Source of the DNA: Candidatus Fervidifonticultor sextus
GTDB taxonomy: Bacteria; Sysuimicrobiota; Sysuimicrobiia; Sysuimicrobiales; Humicultoraceae
NCBI GenBank assembly: GCA_031459875.1
Contig: JAVKHQ010000054.1
Span: 1 to 13,497 of the forward strand
Length of the DNA stretch: 13,497 nt
Reading direction: 5' to 3'
A program made the position numbers and the translations under genes. Under the pieces are notes generated by a model, which was given only the letters and a program-made list of their open reading frames with translations, searched no databases and was not told the origin of the DNA. Within the stretch, counting starts at the first letter, position 1, and each line of letters opens with the position of its first letter. This document shows positions 1 through 13,497 of the stretch, one piece after another.

Positions 1-415
<415 letters not shown>

Positions 416-716
416 AAACCCTTGTGTTGCGACCTCCACTGGCGACAGTGGATGCCAAACTCGGCTGTATGCTGGGAACCCCGCAAGGATCCCGCGCTAC
501 CTGTGCAGTCTTTGCCGGCGTGTCCAGCGGCGTGCAGGTGACAACGCGGCGGGTGAGGCGGACAATCAGCAGGGAAGTCGCCCGTCGGGCGTGTGCGTGA
601 TGGGTTGACCCCTCAGAGACTACACGCCGACATCCCCCGATGGGCCGGCCGCAAGGGCCGGGTCCGGGGGGATGAAGAGATAGTCCGCGCCTCCAGGCGA
701 CTGGGGGAAACACGCG
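416..716 (+). mobile_element. Group I intron in 16S rRNA, inserted after U1498; 301 nt, no internal ORF
   Basis: Removing it restores gaagtcgt|aacaaggtagcc. The 5' exon ends in U (415) and the intron ends in G (716). P1: gtcgtaa 411-417 with ttgcgac 427-433, U415-G429 wobble at the splice site. P10: tgtt 425-428 with 3' exon aaca. P2: 435-452 with GCGA loop. P atgctgggaac (469-479) pairs with Q aatcagcagg (564-573). R tcagagactaca (613-624) and S aagagatagtcc (675-686) form P7. P3: tcggc 461-465 with gccga 626-630. P8: catccccc/gggggatg. P9: 690-707 with GCGA loop. Confidence 0.96.
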
Positions 717-761
717 AACAAGGTAGCCGTACGGGAACGTGCGGCTGGATCACCTCCTTTC
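717..761 (+). rRNA. rrs: 16S rRNA exon 2 (helix 45 and anti-Shine-Dalgarno tail)
   Basis: aacaaggtagccgtacgggaacgtgcggctggatcacctccttt. Confidence 0.98.
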
Positions 762-842
762 TAGGGAGAACATAGGGCCTGTCGTGTGTGCGGTGCACAC
801 GCTCCAGGTACCCGGCGGACTCCTTGCCACCATGGGGTTGTC

Positions 843-1589: not shown

Positions 1590-1938
1590 CGCTTGGCGCA
1601 AGGCAGCCCGGGAAGGTACATTGCGCCTGCCCGCGGACGGTTCAGGTTTCGTTTCCTTGATCCACGTGGTCGATATGGCTCGCGCCATTGTCCGGACCGC
1701 TGAGGCCACCCCCGTACAAACGGTCTTCAACGTTGTTGACGACGAGCCTGTGACCTACCGGGACTTGTTTGGATACATAGCCGCTCAGGAAGGCGCCAAT
1801 CCTCCCGAACCCGGAGGCGATAGTGTGCTGCCTTCCCTAGCCTGCTCGAACTCAAGGATTCGCTCGGAACTGGGATGGTCGCCCGTATTCAAGACCTATC
1901 GCTCTGGTCTCGCAGCGTCCCACACAGCATCGGCCTAA
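1462..1938 (+). pseudogene. NAD-dependent epimerase/dehydratase (extended SDR), C-terminal fragment; integron cassette remnant
   Basis: ILRGGLFYGPG, SLIHVVDMARAI, VFNVVDDEPV and SNSRIRSELGWSP are extended-SDR motifs. There is no N-terminal GxxGxxG or start codon. The stop TAA lies inside the R'' box of the following attC. Confidence 0.85.
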
Positions 1939-2032
1939 CAACTCGATGGAGCCGACCCGGCCAGCTGCGAGGAATCGGGTCCATGATAGGCTCTAAGCGC
2001 TGGCCGGGCGGCTCATCTCGAGACCGTTAGGT
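1933..2032 (+). mobile_element. Integron attC site (100 bp)
   Basis: R'' gcctaac (1933-1939, RYYYAAC) and R' gttaggt (2026-2032, GTTRRRY). Arms gagccg-a-cccggccagc (1949-1965) and gctggccgggcggctc (1999-2014) pair with an extrahelical base at 1955. Confidence 0.9.
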
Positions 2033-2837: not shown

Positions 2838-2875
2838 GCGATGCTCGTGTCGCGGAGACGGGTGCATCTTATCTT

Positions 2876-3290
2876 CACCCCTGCCCGTGCGGCCACCGGG
2901 GCGATCTGTCCCGGGAGTGCCTGTGCAGCCCGGCTCAGGTGGCCCGCTACCTGGCGCGGGTGTCCGGGTCGCTGCTGGACCGCATCGACCTGCACGTGGA
3001 GGTTCCCCGGGTCGCCGCCGCGGAGCTGGTCGCCGCAGGACCCAGGGAGAGCTCGGCACAGGATGCGGGCGCGGGTGCTGGCGGCCCGTGAGATCCAGGC
3101 CGGCGGCTACGGGGGCGCGCGCACCAACGGCGCGTTGAACGCCCGTCAGGTCCGGATCCTGAAGGTGGCGCGGACCATCGCCGACCTGGAGGAGGCCGAG
3201 TCCATCGCGGTCACCCACCTGGCCGAGGCGATCCAGTACCGGGCCCTGGACCGGTCGCTGCGGCTGGTGGGCGGGGGCAGGCCGGGGTGA
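2876..3290 (+). pseudogene. comM: YifB/ComM Mg-chelatase-like AAA+ ATPase, 3' fragment
   Basis: [33 protein letters not shown] from 2879, a +1 frameshift near 3060, then [16 protein letters not shown] and [21 protein letters not shown]. The N-terminal majority is missing and the segment normally between ARQV and RILKVART is deleted. The stop overlaps the dprA start. Confidence 0.9.
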
Positions 3291-4168
3291 GGAGGCTGCC
3301 CGGGCCGGTGGATGCCGTCGGTCCCGACGACCCCGGATATCCGGCGGCGCTGCGGACCATTCCCGATCCGCCGGCGCGGCTGTACGTCCGCGGGCATCTC
3401 CCGGGAGACGGCGCGGCGGCGGTGGCGGTGGTGGGGGCGCGGCGGGCGACAGTGTACGGGGTGGCCGTGGCCCGCCACCTGGCCGCCGATCTGGCCCGCT
3501 GCGGCGTGGCGGTGGTCAGCGGTCTGGCCCGCGGCATCGACGCCGCCGCCCACGAGGGGGCTCTGGACGCCGGCGGGCGGACGGTGGCGGTGCTGGGGTG
3601 CGGGCCGGATGTCGTCTACCCGCCCGAGCATGCCTCTCTGATGGCCCGGGTCATCGACGCGGGGGCGGTCCTGTCTGAATATCCACCCGGTACGCCCCCG
3701 CTGCGCCACCACTTTCCCCGACGCAACCGCCTGATCAGCGGGCTGTCCCTGGGCGTGGTGATTGTGGGAGGCCGAGAAGACAGCGGGGCCCTAATCACCG
3801 CCGACTGCGCCCTGGAGCAGGGACGGGAGGTGTCCGCGGTGCCGGGGCCGGTCACGTCCGCGACGAGCGCTTTGCCCCACCGGCTGGTGCAGCAGGGGGC
3901 CAAGCTGGTCAGGGGTGTGGAGGACATCCTCGAAGAGCTGCGCCTGCGGGTGCGTCCGCCCCCGGCGCCGCCGGCCGTGGCCCTGGCGGGGGCCGAGGCG
4001 GCGGTCTACGCGGTCCTGACGCTGGAGCCGCAGAGTCTGGACGCCCTGGTCCTGCGCAGCCGGCTGCCCGTCGCCGAGGTCAGCCGGGCCCTGGTGGCGC
4101 TGGAGCTGGCGGGGCTGGCGCGGGCGCTCCCGGGCCAGCGCTACGTGCGGACCGCCCCGGGAGACTGA
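3287..4168 (+). CDS. dprA: DNA-processing protein DprA (Smf)
   Basis: [63 protein letters not shown] and LVQQGAKLV motifs plus a C-terminal winged helix; canonical position after comM; lacks the N-terminal SAM domain. Confidence 0.95.
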
Positions 4169-4222
4169 AGGCGCCCGTGACAGCGCGCCACGGCCGCACG
4201 ATGCACGGTTGGGGGGAACACG

Positions 4223-5476
4223 ATGCGCGCCCGGTGTGAGATCTGGATTGGGCCCGGCGAGGCGGGCAGGCTCGTCGTGCGCTTTTGCTACAGTCCCGAA
4301 GGCATCGCGAGGATCAAGACGATCCCCGGCCGCCACTGGCATCCGGAGGGAAAGTACTGGACAGTTCCTCGGACCGACAGCGCCCTCGCGCGTCTGCTGG
4401 CGGTGTTCGCCGACCGTCCCGTTGCGGTGGACCCTGCGCTTCGGCCTGGAAATCACCGCCATGATCAGGTCACGCCGGCCGCCGCGGCGGCTCCTCACCC
4501 CTTGCCCGGACCACCAGGGGTCCTGGGTCGGGTCCGCGAGGCTCTCCGCGCCCGCCACTACAGCCGGAGGACCGAGCAGGCCTATGCGGCCTGGGTTGCC
4601 CGATTCGTTGAGTTCCACGGTGGGCGCGACCCCGGCCAGTTGGGTGAGCGGGAGGTCAACGCGTTCCTGACCCACCCGGCCCTGAGCACACGTGTGGCCG
4701 CCTCGACGCAGAACCAGGCCCTGGCCGCCCTCCTCTTTCTGTACGACGGCGTGCTGCGTCGCCCGTTGGGCCGGGTCGAAGGAGTCGTGCGGGCGAGGCG
4801 CCCTCGGCGGATGCCGGTCGTGCTGACCCGCGAGGAGGTCAGAGCGGTTCTGGACGGTCTCGACGGGACCACGCGCCTGGCCTGCGCGCTGCTGTACGGC
4901 TCTGGGCTGCGCCTGCTGGAGTGCCTGCGTCTGAGAGTCAAGGACATCGACTTCCAGCGCAACGAGATCACCGTCCGTGACGGCAAAGGCGGCAAGGATC
5001 GGGTGACCATGCTGCCGGCGACCGTCAAGGCGTCGCTGCAGGCGCACCTGGAGAAGGTGCGTCGCCAGCACGAGGACGACCTGGCCCGAGGTCTCGGATG
5101 GGCCCCGCTGCCGGATGCGCTCGCCCGTAAGTACCCCAGCGCCGACCGCCAGTGGGCCTGGCAGTGGGTCTTCCCGGTGTCGTCGCATTACGTTGATGCC
5201 CACACCGGCGTGCGCCACAGGCACCATCTGCACGAATCGGTGATTCAGCGGGCGGTGAAGGAAGCCGTTCGCCGGGCGGGGCTGACGAAACCCGCCACGT
5301 GCCACACCTTCCGGCATTCGTTCGCCACACACCTCTTGGAAGACGGATACGATATCCGGACGATCCAGGAGCTGCTCGGACACAAGGACGTGAAGACCAC
5401 GATGATTTACACTCACGTGCTGAACCGCGGCGGAAAGGGCGTCCGGAGCCCGATGGACGGGCTGCACCCCGGTTGA
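4223..5476 (+). CDS. intI: Integron integrase (tyrosine recombinase) with ~100-aa N-terminal extension
   Basis: [42 protein letters not shown], the IntI-specific insertion [52 protein letters not shown] and [16 protein letters not shown]; catalytic R-K-H-R-H-Y intact. Confidence 0.97.
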
Positions 5477-5494
5477 GTCCTGCTGATCTTGAGG

Positions 5495-5660
5495 GTGCTA
5501 GACTGACCGATCAGACAGTATAATACCTGGCAAGGAGGCCGGGGCAGGATGAGGGGAATTCAGATAGGACGCGTGACCGCCGGGGGGCCCGGGCGTCTGA
5601 CCCCGTCGTGTTAGGCTGACAAGAGCGGGGTGTTAGACTGGTCTGTGTAAACACAAGGGG
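5495..5660 (+). mobile_element. Probable attI region downstream of intI
   Basis: Three direct repeats gtgctagactg (5495-5505), gtgttaggctg (5608-5618) and gtgttagactg (5630-5640), two containing GTTRRRY. These are followed by taaacacaag (5648-5657), resembling attI1 taaaacaaag|tt. A perfect TATAAT lies at 5519-5524 without a good -35. Confidence 0.55.
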
Positions 5661-5667
5661 GCGTTCA

Positions 5668-5769
5668 ACCTGACAAGGTGCTGCAGCCGTCGAGCCGCTC
5701 CCGTGGGAGTCGAAGCAAGGCAAGCGGCGAGCCGCGCGTGGCCCGCGGGTGAGCGCCAAGGCGTCGGGC
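5668..5769 (+). mobile_element. Degenerate attC site (102 bp)
   Basis: R'' acctgac (5668-5674) and R' gtcgggc (5763-5769). Arms ggtgct-g-cagccg-t-cgagccgc (5677-5698) and gtggcccgcgggtgagcgcc (5738-5757) pair with two extrahelical bases and a few mismatches. Confidence 0.7.
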
Positions 5770-5788
5770 GGCTCGGAACCACAATCAA

Positions 5789-6076
5789 ATGGTTGATACA
5801 CGTGTTCAACTAGAGGTCGAAGACTGGGTGCGCCAGAACTGGATGCCGAAGCAGTTTGGGCAGCAGTTCCGACGCGAGCGAATTCGACTTACTTCCGGCG
5901 GCTTCACCGTGCTCACGGATCCCGGCATGCACCAGCTCTGTCTCAAGGAGAAAGAGGGCGCCCGAGTACCACCTTCAATCGAGTTCCGGCTCGCGCCGGT
6001 CCCAACGGAGCTTCATGAGAGTCTGCGCCGCGCGCAGAGCGCCTCGCGAGAAGTGCGCCCGAGGCGTGACACATAA
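5789..6076 (+). CDS. Hypothetical cassette protein, possibly internally deleted
   Basis: 95-aa ORF starting 20 bp after the attC, protein-like composition, less GC-biased codons than the flanking genes. The abrupt change at SGGF|TVLTD suggests a missing middle. Confidence 0.6.
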   Translation: MVDTRVQLEVEDWVRQNWMPKQFGQQFRRERIRLTSGGFTVLTDPGMHQLCLKEKEGARVPPSIEFRLAPVPTELHESLRRAQSASREVRPRRDT

Positions 6077-6137
6077 TCGGCAGGGCCGCCTGACCAGCGC
6101 ATAAAGCCCTGCTCTACGGGGCTAAAGAGGGTTTCCG

Positions 6138-6993
6138 ATGAAAGACTGGCAGGTCAAAGTAGGTGGCGACCGTGAGCTCGCGTGCACAGATATTGGTGAG
6201 CGCGGTTGGCCCTGCGTTTTGTTCTTCCACGGTGCGCCCTCGAGCCGCCTGCGCCTCGCCTACCTGGAACAACAATTTTCTAGCCGAGGGCATCCGGGTT
6301 GTCTCACCCGATCGCCCTGGCTACGGGAGGTCGTCGCCGCAGCCGGGTCGGGCGATGACCGATTGGCCCTCGGACGTCGCTGTCCTCGCGGATGCGCTGG
6401 GACTCGGCCGCTTTGTCGTTGCCGGCCACTCGGGCGGTGGTCCATATGCGGTGATGTGTGCCGCGCTGCTCCCGGAGCGTGTGTCGGCAGGCATCATCCT
6501 GGGTGGCGTGACGGACATGGGGTGGCCCGACGCCTGGAAGGGGTACCTCGACAGCGAGGTTCTTCTCATGCGCATGCCTGACGAGGAAGCGGCTATCGCC
6601 TGGTGCGTGGAACGCTATGGCGCAGACGGGAGTGGGTTCCTGTCCGCATCTGGTATCGCGTTTACGGGACCCGACGCGCGACTGTATGCGGACGAAGAGG
6701 TCGCGCCCCTTCTGGCTTCGTCTCGTGCTGAGGCCTTTCGGCAGGGCGTGGCAGGATACGCTCAAGACCTCTTCATCCAGGGCCGCCCGTGGCCGTTCGA
6801 CCCAGGCACTATCACCTCACCGATCCATGTCGTCCACGGTGCGTTGGACACACTCCTCCCCCTGGCACACAGCCGCCACACCGCGGAAGTGGTTCCGGGA
6901 TCTATTCTGCGCGTGTTTCCCGCACATGGGCACTTTACCATCCTGAGTGAGCTCCCGACGATGGCGTCGGCTTTGGTGCGTTCGTTGTCCTAG
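6138..6993 (+). pseudogene. Alpha/beta hydrolase split by a single frameshift
   Basis: MKDW..VLFFHGAPSSR in the 6138 frame continues as GIRVVSPDRPGYGRS, GHSGGG (nucleophile elbow), HGALD and HGH in the 6163 frame. Removing one T from tttt 6276-6279 joins them. Confidence 0.88.
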
Positions 6994-11687: not shown

Positions 11688-11768
11688 GGCCCCTGCAGGA
11701 GGTCGTGGGGACGGCGGGTAAGTGGAAGGCCAGACGAGGAGCAGGCATCCCTGCCGGAGGTGAGGACC

Positions 11769-11996
11769 GTGGTCTCAGCCGTGGTGCTGCTGAAAGCCGC
11801 TCCGGGCCAGGCCCGCAAGGCCGCGATCGCCATCAGGAAGATCAAGGGCGTGCGCCAGGTCCACGTGGTCACCGGACCGTACGACATCATCTGCATGACG
11901 GAGGCCGGGACCATGGCCGCGCTGGGGGACACCGTCATTACGAAGATCCAGCGGACCCCCGGGGTGACCGACACGCTCACCTGCCTCGTCGTCTGA
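11769..11996 (+). CDS. Stand-alone Lrp/AsnC ligand-binding domain protein
   Basis: IKGVRQVHVVTGPYDII and IQRTPGVTDTLT; SD ggaggtgagg; no HTH domain. Confidence 0.85.
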   Translation: MVSAVVLLKAAPGQARKAAIAIRKIKGVRQVHVVTGPYDIICMTEAGTMAALGDTVITKIQRTPGVTDTLTCLVV

Positions 11997-12016: not shown

Positions 12017-12044
12017 TTGACAACCCCGATGCCCCTACTATAAT
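12017..12044 (+). promoter_or_regulatory. Consensus sigma70 promoter upstream of the 23S unit
   Basis: TTGACA (12017-12022), 16-bp spacer, TATAAT (12039-12044); a 16-bp spacer is typical of rrn promoters. Confidence 0.9.

Positions 12045-12356: not shown

Positions 12357-13497
<1,141 letters not shown>

What the first reader, a model, noticed from the sequence alone, without database searches (positions are those of the whole stretch)
4223..4520. Integron integrase with an extra HARP-like N-terminal domain
Seen: about 100 aa precede the normal IntI start, containing [33 protein letters not shown] followed by a Pro/Ala linker. Known: F.Y....I..IK.IPG..W....K.W..P is the pattern of HARP-type domains (SMARCAL1 annealing helicases and related prokaryotic modules) that bind ss/dsDNA junctions, and IntI recombines folded single-stranded attC. 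Inference: the domain could help capture or fold ssDNA substrates, defining a distinct IntI subfamily. The domain assignment is by eye.
Basis: partly seen in the sequence, partly recalled or inferred. Interest (0 to 1): 0.7.

Follow-up and report, generated by a model that had tools for sequence, protein, structure and literature searches.

The report
Integron integrase carrying a HARP domain
This gene encodes a complete integron integrase with an extra front domain related to the fork-DNA-binding HARP module of SMARCAL1-type helicases, a fusion seen in several bacterial phyla and not found in print.

Summary
Observation confirmed. Window 4223-5476 (+) encodes a 417-aa integron integrase: TIGR02249 472.6 bits, and it aligns end to end with VchIntIA from residue 103. 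About 100 extra residues precede that core.

Residues 6-73 are a true HARP-family domain. Its profile matches prokaryotic HARP domains that pass Pfam's cut-off (hhalign 99.35%, E 6e-21). Those domains hit the SMARCAL1 HARP crystal structure (E 1.3e-10). The predicted fold has five strands and two helices and resembles the UvsW and XPB N-terminal domains. The window's own Pfam score (16.8 bits) is below the cut-off of 25.

The domain is under purifying selection (dN/dS 0.19-0.45). A nearly neutral Pro/Ala linker ties it to the core.

"A distinct IntI subfamily" is not supported. HARP-bearing IntIs sit in at least three places on the IntI tree (AU p 1e-44 against one clade), and decayed copies exist. 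The same domain heads insertion-less cassette recombinases, SNF2 helicases and XseA.

The likeliest role, capture of ss/ds-junction or branched DNA, is inferred and not shown.

Earlier notes of this scan described HARP on insertion-less integron-like recombinases in other genomes. Here it sits on a canonical IntI.

Also noticed: this lineage's integron lies directly behind the 16S rRNA gene.

The parts
4223..5476 (+). HARP-IntI gene, 417 codons plus stop
   Evidence: ORF. TIGR02249 472.6 bits against a cut-off of 265. Pfam Phage_int_SAM_4 at residues 102-183 and Phage_integrase at 200-400.
4211..4218 (+). Shine-Dalgarno-like GGGGGGAA, 5-12 nt before the ATG at 4223
   Evidence: Read from the sequence. 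ATG 4223 is the first start codon after the upstream stop at 4178.
4238..4441 (+). HARP-family domain, residues 6-73 (strand-strand-helix-strand-strand-helix-strand)
   Evidence: Pfam HARP is the only family hit, but below its cut-off (16.8-17.4 bits against 25). hhalign against Pfam-passing prokaryotic HARP domains gives 99.35%, E 6e-21. AlphaFold2 pLDDT 83-85. Structural matches: UvsW N-domain Z 7.7, XPB N-domain Z 6.8, SMARCAL1 HARP Z 4.6. dN/dS 0.19-0.45.
4442..4522 (+). Pro/Ala-rich linker, residues 74-100, variable in sequence and length
   Evidence: Variable columns in A1. pLDDT below 50 from residue 76/77 to the model's end at residue 80. dN/dS 0.36-1.3.
4523..5473 (+). Canonical integron-integrase core with the IntI-specific insertion, residues 101-417
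   Evidence: One unbroken alignment to VchIntIA 2a3v residues 8-318, E 2.5e-90, including the ALxxKYP...W.W.FP insertion region and the RHSFATHLL / GH..V.TT.IYTHV motifs.
5496..5657 (+). attI-like region downstream of intI
   Evidence: It holds a TATAAT (5519-5524) and three direct repeats TG(C/T)TAG(A/G)CTG(A/G)(C/T)C (about 5496-5509, 5608-5620, 5630-5643). It also holds an L-box-like GTGTAAAC and the conserved ...ACA(C/A)(G/A)AG boundary at 5657. In the alignment of 6 related loci (A4), similarity is high up to this G and ends there in all six. Relatives continue with TTAGGC, TTAGCT or TTGGCG. The window continues with GGGGC, so its R box is not intact.
1933..2032 (+). Single canonical attC site (R'' GCCTAAC ... 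R' GTTAGGT), 2.2 kb upstream of intI
   Evidence: DNA fold -33.2 kcal/mol, z -5.1, 0 of 200 shuffles as good. The 5' half is nearly identical to attC sites in L035 and L080. ORF 1291-1938 ends in the TAA of R''. It is the only such site on this contig.
3287..4168 (+). Second, diverged dprA copy directly upstream of intI (54-nt gap), preceded by a ComM C-terminal fragment (2841-3290)
   Evidence: Pfam DNA_processg_A 240.9 bits plus DprA_WH; Mg_chelatase_C 50.7 bits. A 60%-identical comM-dprA pair lies on contig C20. This neighbourhood was not seen in 49 related loci.
1..762 (+). 3' part of the 16S rRNA gene, interrupted by a ~300-nt intervening sequence (418-717)
   Evidence: Rfam SSU 1-440. 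The 16S tail ...AACAAGGTAGCCGTA...CACCTCCTTTCT resumes at 718. The homologous insert in L011 scores as a group I intron (54.3 bits). Intron-less joints 323/328/331 to 717 appear in metagenome contigs.

Best explanation
Shown: window 4223-5476 encodes an intact integron integrase. Its N-terminus carries one HARP-family domain (residues 6-73), tethered by a ~27-residue fast-evolving Pro/Ala linker to the usual IntI core.

Inferred: the HARP domain works as it does in SMARCAL1, UvsW and XPB, as a structure-specific DNA-binding module for ss/ds junctions and branched DNA. On a flexible leash it would raise the local concentration of the recombinase at one of three structures: the base of a folded single-stranded attC hairpin, a replication fork where attC strands become single-stranded, or the branched intermediate of attI x attC recombination. 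The IntI core would still do all site recognition and catalysis.

The domain is an optional accessory. It is shared with a sister group of cassette recombinases that lack the IntI insertion, and it has been lost or has decayed repeatedly.
For: Identity of the gene:
- TIGR02249 472.6 bits.
- Full-length alignment to VchIntIA.

Identity of the domain:
- HARP is the only Pfam family hit, by 13 of 14 close relatives.
- A profile of the domain finds 1963 cluster representatives in 1.84 billion.
- 149 of the best 150 were scanned. 4 are SNF2 helicases with two tandem HARP domains, and 10 proteins pass Pfam's HARP cut-off. The profile matches those same positions.
- hhalign of 45 recombinase-type domains against 9 Pfam-passing HARP domains: 99.35%, E 6e-21.
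- Those 9 domains hit the SMARCAL1 HARP structure 4o66 at E 1.3e-10.

Fold:
- Five strands and two helices, pLDDT 83-85. PMC4666394 describes HARP this way and calls the UvsW N-terminus a HARP domain (passage read).
- Best structural matches: UvsW N-domain Z 7.7, rmsd 2.0 over 66; XPB N-domain Z 6.8; 4o66 Z 4.6, rmsd 2.3 over 51.

Translated and selected:
- dN/dS is 0.19-0.45 in the domain, 0.36-1.3 in the linker and 0.12-0.21 in the core (7 pairs).
- Metagenome contigs from 3 runs of one study bridge dprA, HARP and core (X1 4085-4573, X2 4099-5020, X4 4046-4986).

Functional association:
- The other fusion partners all act on ssDNA or branched DNA: SNF2 annealing-helicase-like proteins, the ExoVII large subunit (L054, L056), and cassette recombinases.
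- An insertion-less HARP recombinase in L035 is followed by two cassettes with canonical attC sites.
Against: - No DNA-binding test exists for any recombinase-borne HARP domain.
- The window's own Pfam HARP score (16.8 bits) is below the cut-off of 25.
- Direct profile hits to SMARCAL1 are weak (E 0.13-0.23).
- The structural Z scores (4.6-7.7) lie in the range the tool calls common. eIF1-like folds score as high (Z 6.6).
- The domain is dispensable. A second IntI in the same genome lacks it. 98 of 120 nearest IntI cores lack it. Three relatives carry truncated copies.
- This integron may be inactive. The attI R box is not intact and no attC follows intI.
- An in-frame TTG at codon 94 could give a plain IntI as well.
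Confidence: 0.5

Rival explanations
1. Arm-type accessory-site binder. The HARP domain binds duplex DNA at the direct repeats TGTTAGRCTGRYC that flank the attI core. It would act like the N-terminal arm-binding domain of lambda-type integrases, shaping the synapse or controlling the cassette promoter.
For: - Three conserved direct repeats lie between the intI stop and the attI crossover point, one next to a conserved TATAAT.
- An N-terminal domain on a flexible linker matches the architecture of arm-binding tyrosine recombinases (recalled).
- Bacteroidota-type relatives carry 2-4 tandem copies (P0110, P0141, P0146), as would suit arrays of sites.
Against: - In class 1 integrons the attI direct repeats are bound by the IntI core itself (recalled).
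- HARP domains are known for structure-specific rather than sequence-specific binding (PMC4666394 passage).
- I did not compare the attI of IntIs lacking HARP in the same lineage, so the repeats are not shown to go with the domain.
Confidence: 0.2
2. Protein-level regulator. The domain docks on the IntI core, on another protomer or on a host protein. It tunes oligomerisation or activity without binding DNA.
For: - The domain is optional and evolves faster than the core.
- It occurs in variable copy number.
Against: - Conserved aromatic and basic positions (Y23, K32, R37, W39, K44, W46) match the HARP signature shared with DNA-binding HARP domains.
- No docking was tested here.
Confidence: 0.12
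3. Relic with no present role in this gene. The extension is a decaying leftover, or it is skipped because translation starts at the TTG of codon 94.
For: - Truncated HARP copies exist in close relatives (P0165, P0167, P0184/L058).
- The attI of this copy is damaged and no downstream cassettes were found.
- There is an in-frame TTG at codon 94.
Against: - The window's domain is complete (profile positions 2-83 of 83, E 5.8e-46).
- All near-invariant family residues are kept.
- dN/dS is 0.19-0.45 in 7 of 7 comparisons.
- The SD-like run stands before ATG 4223, not before codon 94.
Confidence: 0.08

Closest known systems
Integron integrases (IntI; NCBIfam TIGR02249; VchIntIA, PDB 2a3v)
   Same: Residues 101-417 are a full IntI. 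The model is covered end to end at 472.6 bits. Residues 103-412 align without a break to VchIntIA (306.8 bits, E 2.5e-90), including the IntI-specific insertion and the catalytic-region motifs. A conserved attI-like region follows the gene.
   Different: About 100 extra N-terminal residues: a HARP domain plus linker. VchIntIA starts at the equivalent of residue ~96. The gene is co-oriented with its attI, which lies downstream of intI. As I recall, that layout is known from the 'inverted integrase' group. The gene also sits behind a 16S rRNA gene.
HARP domains of SMARCAL1 (PDB 4o66; Pfam PF07443) and of prokaryotic HARP-SNF2 helicases; N-terminal domains of T4 UvsW and archaeal XPB
   Same: Same domain family by profile-profile comparison. 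Same five-strand, two-helix fold in the model. Same signature: aromatic-x-Y, IK, PGR, W, K-W-x-P.
   Different: It is fused to a tyrosine recombinase instead of an SF2 motor, and there is one copy instead of the two in SMARCAL1. The window's sequence does not reach Pfam's own cut-off.
Insertion-less HARP recombinases heading cassette arrays
   Same: Same N-terminal HARP family and the same SAM_4 plus catalytic core. They form the sister group of IntI in the core trees. In L035 they sit next to the same kind of attC site. The recombinase HARP domains group together weakly, apart from helicase HARPs.
   Different: They lack the IntI insertion: TIGR02249 matches in two pieces below its cut-off, and the catalytic domain spans ~161 rather than ~201 residues. 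Some have 2-4 HARP copies. The window's protein is a canonical IntI.
Arm-binding N-terminal domains of lambda-type tyrosine integrases
   Same: An accessory DNA-binding domain placed N-terminal to the core-binding domain on a flexible linker (recalled).
   Different: Unrelated fold and family. No arm sites have been shown here.

Membership tests
Integron integrase (IntI, TIGR02249) | Scores above the curated family cut-off over the whole model | tested here: met
   472.6 bits against a cut-off of 265; residues 101-414 cover model positions 2-315 of 315.
Integron integrase (IntI, TIGR02249) | IntI-specific insertion in the catalytic domain (the segment that contacts extrahelical attC bases in VchIntIA; that role is recalled) | tested here: met
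   Unbroken alignment to 2a3v across the insertion region. The Pfam Phage_integrase stretch is 201 residues, against ~161 in insertion-less relatives.
Integron integrase (IntI, TIGR02249) | Tyrosine-recombinase catalytic residues (R, K, H-x-x-R, H/W, Y; the list is recalled) | tested here: met
   [25 protein letters not shown] and [13 protein letters not shown] align with identical residues in VchIntIA.
Integron integrase (IntI, TIGR02249) | Adjacent attI site and attC-flanked cassettes | tested here: inconclusive
   The conserved attI-like region ends at the expected crossover G, but the window lacks the TTAGGC half of the R box. One canonical attC lies 2.2 kb upstream. My pattern-plus-fold scan found none downstream. 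IntegronFinder's attC model was not available.
Integron integrase (IntI, TIGR02249) | Catalyses attI x attC / attC x attC recombination | not testable with these tools
   Needs a recombination assay.
HARP domain (Pfam PF07443) | Reaches Pfam's gathering score | tested here: not met
   14.8-17.4 bits against a cut-off of 25 for the window. One recombinase relative (L044) reaches 27.2 bits.
HARP domain (Pfam PF07443) | Homology to accepted HARP domains by profile comparison | tested here: met
   A3 against A5 (9 domains from proteins that pass Pfam's cut-off): hhalign 99.35%, E 6e-21, 61 columns. A5 against 4o66: E 1.3e-10. The A2 profile hits HARP-SNF2 proteins at E 1e-17 to 1e-20 in 1.84 billion proteins.
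HARP domain (Pfam PF07443) | Compact fold of a five-stranded sheet against two helices (PMC4666394, passage read) | tested here: met
   Predicted only. Strands at 7-11, 16-20, 38-40, 45-49 and 67-69; helices at 25-31 and 54-61; pLDDT 83-85. Matches: UvsW Z 7.7, XPB Z 6.8, 4o66 Z 4.6. The Z values alone are not decisive.
HARP domain (Pfam PF07443) | Binds forked or ss/ds-junction DNA | not testable with these tools
   Needs EMSA or a structure with DNA.
SMARCAL1-type annealing helicase | SNF2 ATPase motor joined to the HARP domains | tested here: not met
   The window protein has no helicase domain; only the SAM_4 and Phage_integrase domains follow. It shares a domain with this family and is not a member.

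The most novel reading that the evidence does not exclude
The HARP domain was already present in the common ancestor of integron integrases and their insertion-less sister recombinases, and classical IntIs are the lineages that lost it. It couples cassette recombination to replication forks or other branched, single-stranded DNA. In this thermophilic lineage the whole platform is parked directly behind the 16S rRNA gene, so that read-through from the rRNA promoter feeds intI and the cassette site. That would add a structure-sensing module and a new genomic niche to the integron paradigm.
Probability: 0.2. Interest if true: 0.85.

Novelty: new variant of a known kind. Interest (0 to 1): 0.6.

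Why it matters
Integron integrases are unusual because they recombine a folded single strand (attC) with a duplex site. As I recall, how the enzyme finds transient single-stranded or branched DNA in the cell is still an open point.

Here a domain whose known job is to read ss/ds junctions is fused in nature to canonical IntIs in several phyla and to their closest insertion-less relatives. That gives a concrete, testable handle: compare activity with and without the domain, on defined DNA structures.

It also matters for annotation. The extension is missed by Pfam's threshold. The insertion-less HARP recombinases with true attC cassettes fall below the IntI family (TIGR02249) cut-off here, so searches that require an IntI-type integrase may overlook them (I did not run such a search).

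The fixed position of the platform behind the 16S rRNA gene in about ten genomes is a second point I did not find in print. It bears on how cassettes may be expressed.

Tried and rejected
- Direct sequence search of the 100-residue extension against PDB gave only chance-level rows. 4o66 came fifth at E 0.21. Profiles A2 and A3 put 4o66 first, but at E 0.13 and 0.23. The link became significant only through prokaryotic HARP domains.
- Foldseek against PDB gave no match at E<=0.001. The best were XPB at 0.04 and 4o66 at 0.049.
- Synteny of dprA, the ComM fragment and the downstream genes with 49 related loci: only a glyoxalase (L025) and the LAGLIDADG gene (L011) recur. So I dropped the idea of a conserved dprA-intI pair.
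- A cassette array downstream of the window's intI: there are nine small co-oriented genes, but no R''/R' hairpins in the gaps and some gaps are too short. My scan is crude (RYYYAAC...GTTRRRY plus fold) and would miss unusual attC sites.
- The sigma-70 promoter scan of 3900-6300 found none. The conserved TATAAT at 5519 has no good -35.
- RNA evidence: no RNA holder is listed among the 8 runs, so nothing can be said on expression or transcript ends.
- Literature: 'integron integrase'+'HARP' gave 19 papers, and the 10 listed are unrelated by title and abstract. 'HARP domain'+'tyrosine recombinase' gave 0. 'integron integrase'+'N-terminal extension' gave 2, both unrelated. 'HARP'+'SMARCAL1'+'bacterial'+'integrase' gave 1, unrelated. 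'HARP-like'+'recombinase' gave 23; the 10 listed are on eukaryotic forks or evolution. 'integron'+'16S rRNA gene'+'downstream of the 16S'+'integrase' gave 0. The SMARCAL1 HARP structure paper (DOI tried) is not held, so residue-level DNA contacts could not be compared.
- The HARP domain tree (80 columns) is too weakly resolved to tell one acquisition from several.
Full report
1. WHAT IS AT THE COORDINATES

The window holds an ORF at 4223..5476 on the + strand, 417 aa. Residues 101-414 cover the integron-integrase model TIGR02249 end to end (472.6 bits, cut-off 265). Pfam finds Phage_int_SAM_4 at 102-183 and Phage_integrase at 200-400. Against solved structures the best hit is VchIntIA (2a3v), residues 8-318 of 320 aligned without a break to window residues 103-412 (E 2.5e-90). 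The alignment includes the IntI-specific insertion region and the catalytic-region motifs.

The quoted peptide is residues 17-49, and residues 74-100 are a Pro/Ala-rich stretch. ATG 4223 is the first start codon after the upstream stop (4178). It has GGGGGGAA 5-12 nt before it. The only other candidate near the IntI core is a TTG at codon 94, which has no such run.

2. THE EXTENSION IS REAL PROTEIN

- A word-indexed search with residues 1-100 found 13 proteins, 56-83% identical over the extension. 12 of them carry recombinase domains.
- In their alignment residues ~9-73 are strongly conserved (invariant L17, V19, Y23, P25, A29, I31, K32, G36, R37, W39, W46, T47, P49 ...). The linker varies in sequence and length.
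- I compared the window with 7 homologous genes from related loci. dN/dS is 0.19-0.45 for residues 6-73, 0.36-1.3 for the linker (one pair not computable) and 0.12-0.21 for the core.
- Metagenome contigs from three runs of one study bridge the end of dprA, the HARP part and the core (X1 4085-4573 with no differences, X2 4099-5020, X4 4046-4986). X1 may be the sample the genome came from.

3. THE DOMAIN IS A HARP DOMAIN

- HARP (PF07443) is the only Pfam family that the extension touches, but it scores below threshold: 16.8 bits for the 100-residue piece against a cut-off of 25. 13 of 14 close relatives hit it, best E 3.2e-4, and no other family appears at E<=1.
- A profile of the 14 N-terminal domains (A2), run against 1.84 billion cluster representatives, found 1963 proteins at E<=1e-3 and 502 at E<=1e-10.
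- I scanned 149 of the best 150 with Pfam. By my count of that table, 50 carry tyrosine-recombinase domains. 4 are SNF2 helicases with HARP (P0073, P0082, P0117, P0123). 10 proteins pass Pfam's HARP cut-off (up to 55.5 bits in P0117). Most of the rest are short and without any family.
- The A2 profile matches both tandem HARP domains of the helicases at the Pfam positions.
- A wider alignment of 45 recombinase-type domains (A3) was compared with 9 domains cut by Pfam coordinates from proteins that pass the HARP cut-off (A5). This gives hhalign probability 99.35%, E 6e-21 over 61 columns.
- A5 in turn hits the SMARCAL1 HARP crystal structure 4o66 at E 1.3e-10.
- The direct hits of A2 and A3 to 4o66 rank first but are weak (E 0.13 and 0.23).

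4. FOLD

Two AlphaFold2 models (14- and 45-row alignments) agree: strands 7-11, 16-20, 38-40, 45-49 and 67-69, helices 25-31 and 54-61, pLDDT 83.4 and 85.1.

A passage of PMC4666394 describes HARP as a five-stranded sheet packed against two helices. It says a single HARP domain sits at the N-terminus of T4 UvsW.

| Search | Best matches |
|---|---|
| All-against-representatives | UvsW N-terminus, Z 7.7, rmsd 2.0 over 66 |
| Second look at Foldseek's list | Archaeal XPB N-domain Z 6.8; 4o66 Z 4.6, rmsd 2.3 over 51, 24% identity |
| Foldseek alone | Nothing below E 0.04 |

These Z values lie in the range the tool calls common, and eIF1-like folds score about the same. So the fold evidence supports the assignment but does not carry it. 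The sequence chain in section 3 does.

5. WHERE ELSE THE DOMAIN OCCURS

A scan of one genome per species found 49 loci in records titled Armatimonadota, Nitrospirota, Methylomirabilota, Elusimicrobiota, Chloroflexota, Latescibacterota, WOR-3, Actinomycetota, Bacillota, Bacteroidota, Gemmatimonadota, Acidobacteriota and Myxococcota. I scanned 48 of the ORFs; L017 was left out because its frame is broken:
- 31 are tyrosine recombinases.
- 1 is an SNF2 helicase (L046).
- 2 are ExoVII large subunits (L054, L056).
- 14 show no family.

The recombinases are of two kinds. One kind is true IntI, with a catalytic domain of ~200 residues and TIGR02249 in one piece (for example P0003 and P0006 at 465-467 bits). 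The other lacks the IntI insertion: the catalytic domain is ~161 residues, TIGR02249 matches in two pieces at 186-222 bits, and the score is close to the XerA-type model (P0085, P0125, P0128, P0110, P0141, P0146). Some of the second kind carry 2-4 tandem HARP domains.

In L035, an Anaerolineae record, such an insertion-less HARP recombinase (549-1646) is followed by two co-oriented ORFs. Each ends in the TAA of a canonical attC site (1987-2043 and 2585-2710; fold z -3.4 to -4.4).

This agrees with earlier notes of this scan, which describe HARP recombinases without the IntI insertion at the head of cassette arrays in other genomes. I tested that claim only on L035.

6. IS IT A DISTINCT INTI SUBFAMILY? 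NO

- Among the 120 best relatives of the window's IntI core, 22 carry the domain. All are within the top ~30, at 77% core identity or more.
- In the genomes of the window's order-level group, 21 of 94 have an IntI-like match at E<=1e-60 and 18 are above the cut-off.
- Of their 27 IntI loci, 12 carry the domain in frame (one of them truncated), 14 do not, and one (L068) is cut at its contig end. Two loci (L073 with the domain, L081 without) come from G024, an unpublished genome. Without them the count is 11 of 25.
- The window's own genome has a second IntI on contig C55 (466 bits) without the domain.
- In a FastTree tree of 154 cores and an IQ-TREE tree of 60, the IntI clade has support 100. 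The HARP-bearing IntIs fall in at least three places: the window's clade, an Elusimicrobiota clade, and a Nitrospiraceae sequence next to a HARP-less one.
- Holding all 16 HARP-bearing IntIs together costs 272 log-likelihood units (AU p 1.2e-44).
- Inside the window's clade, seven proteins have N-termini unlike HARP, and three have internally truncated HARP copies (P0165, P0167, P0184 = L058).
- The insertion-less HARP recombinases form the sister group of IntI in both trees (support 84 and 95).

Caveats:
- The group was named after the trait and after a first tree.
- HARP-less IntIs were sampled only near this core and in this order.
- Insertion-less recombinases were sampled only if they had HARP.
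- Only two Xer outgroups were used.
- A tree of 64 HARP domains places 15 of 16 IntI domains with 8 insertion-less-recombinase domains, apart from most helicase domains. It has few columns and weak support.

The pattern fits an old fusion with many losses, but several gains are not excluded.

7. THE INTEGRON AROUND IT

Downstream of the intI stop, six related loci share a conserved region (A4). It holds a TATAAT, three direct repeats TG(C/T)TAG(A/G)CTG(A/G)(C/T)C, and GGTCTAAACACGAG. After that point all six sequences diverge. That is the signature of an attI crossover point (G|TTAGGC in most relatives).

The window keeps everything up to that G (5657) but continues GGGGC, so its R box is not intact. 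The layout is therefore intI, then attI, then cassettes, all on one strand. L022 and L080 show an attC downstream of intI in that orientation.

In the window I found only one canonical attC (1933-2032; fold z -5.1). It lies 2.2 kb upstream of intI, at the end of ORF 1291-1938, and there is none downstream. The nine small co-oriented genes after attI (alpha/beta hydrolase, dienelactone hydrolase, DUF6295, glyoxalase, MsrA, thioesterase, AAA_33, Macro and an unassigned 95-aa ORF) are thus not shown to be cassettes. This copy may be an inactive or empty platform, even though the integrase gene itself looks intact.

8. HOW IT MOST LIKELY WORKS

Shown:
- A complete IntI core.
- A complete, selected HARP-family domain.
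- A floppy linker between them.
- Fusion partners of the same domain that all deal with single-stranded or branched DNA.

Established elsewhere:
- HARP-type domains are the substrate-recognition modules of fork-remodelling enzymes (PMC4666394 passage).
- Integron cassette insertion uses a folded single strand (title seen in the reference list of PMC3414803; the details are recalled).

Inferred: the domain holds the recombinase at ss/ds junctions, namely the foot of a folded attC, a fork, or the branched recombination intermediate. I put about 0.9 on 'true, translated HARP-family domain on a true IntI' and about 0.4-0.5 on this mechanism. The rivals are an arm-site-like binder of the attI repeats, a protein-level regulator, or a relic.

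9. NOVELTY

None of six literature searches found the fusion. The library does not hold most subscription papers. Earlier notes of this scan had already seen HARP on insertion-less integron-like recombinases. What this window adds is the domain on a canonical IntI with the hallmark insertion, its scattered distribution on the IntI tree, and the link through shared attC and attI features. I class it as a new variant of a known kind.

Noticed in passing
window 1-762 and 4223; loci L009/L070, L010, L011/L064, L023/L061, L059, L060, L063, L069, L074: In this lineage the integron integrase gene lies directly downstream of a 16S rRNA gene and runs the same way. A complete 16S ends 64-460 nt before the intI ORF in L009, L010 and L023. 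In L011 a LAGLIDADG gene lies between them. The 16S 3' end or tail is found next to intI in 8 of 27 order-level IntI loci, both with and without HARP. In the window 3.4 kb lie between 16S and intI, and the 23S gene starts at 12358. One search found no paper on this.
   Followed up: partly
window 418-717 and 786-1589; L011 2858-3095 and 3211-3852: The 16S gene is interrupted ~45 nt before its 3' end by a ~300-nt insert. The insert is homologous to one that Rfam scores as a group I intron in L011 (54.3 bits). A LAGLIDADG endonuclease gene follows the 16S end (79% identical in L011). Other metagenome contigs join 16S position ~330 straight to 717. L009, L010 and L059 lack the insert.
   Followed up: partly
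window 2841-4168: A ComM C-terminal fragment and a complete dprA sit right before intI in a stretch of 72-77% G+C, between flanks of about 60-66%. The genome has another comM-dprA pair on contig C20, only 60% identical. The copy here therefore looks acquired. The pairing with intI is not seen in 49 related loci.
   Followed up: partly
window 12017-12044: A perfect sigma-70-type promoter, TTGACA-16 nt-TATAAT, lies ~310 nt before the 23S rRNA gene. So 23S seems to have its own promoter, apart from 16S (read from the printed sequence).
   Followed up: no
L054 3869-5905, L056 3962-5566: The same HARP-family domain is fused to the N-terminus of the exonuclease VII large subunit (XseA) in a Terriglobia and a Hyalangium record.
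   Followed up: no
P0055, P0162: Two metagenome proteins join the domain to a LAGLIDADG_3 domain (P0055, 212 aa, cut at its end) and to AbiJ_NTD3 (P0162). P0055 may be a read-through of the LAGLIDADG-intI neighbourhood seen in L011.
   Followed up: no
L003 (G000 contig C55, 1489-2847 on the - strand): The genome's second integron integrase (466 bits) has no HARP domain. Its open frame upstream of the core holds a PGCAWS-type repeat that is probably non-coding DNA.
   Followed up: no
window 11768-11996: A small + strand ORF between the Macro-domain gene and the 23S promoter was not sent to any family search (seen in the print). Its kind is unknown.
   Followed up: no
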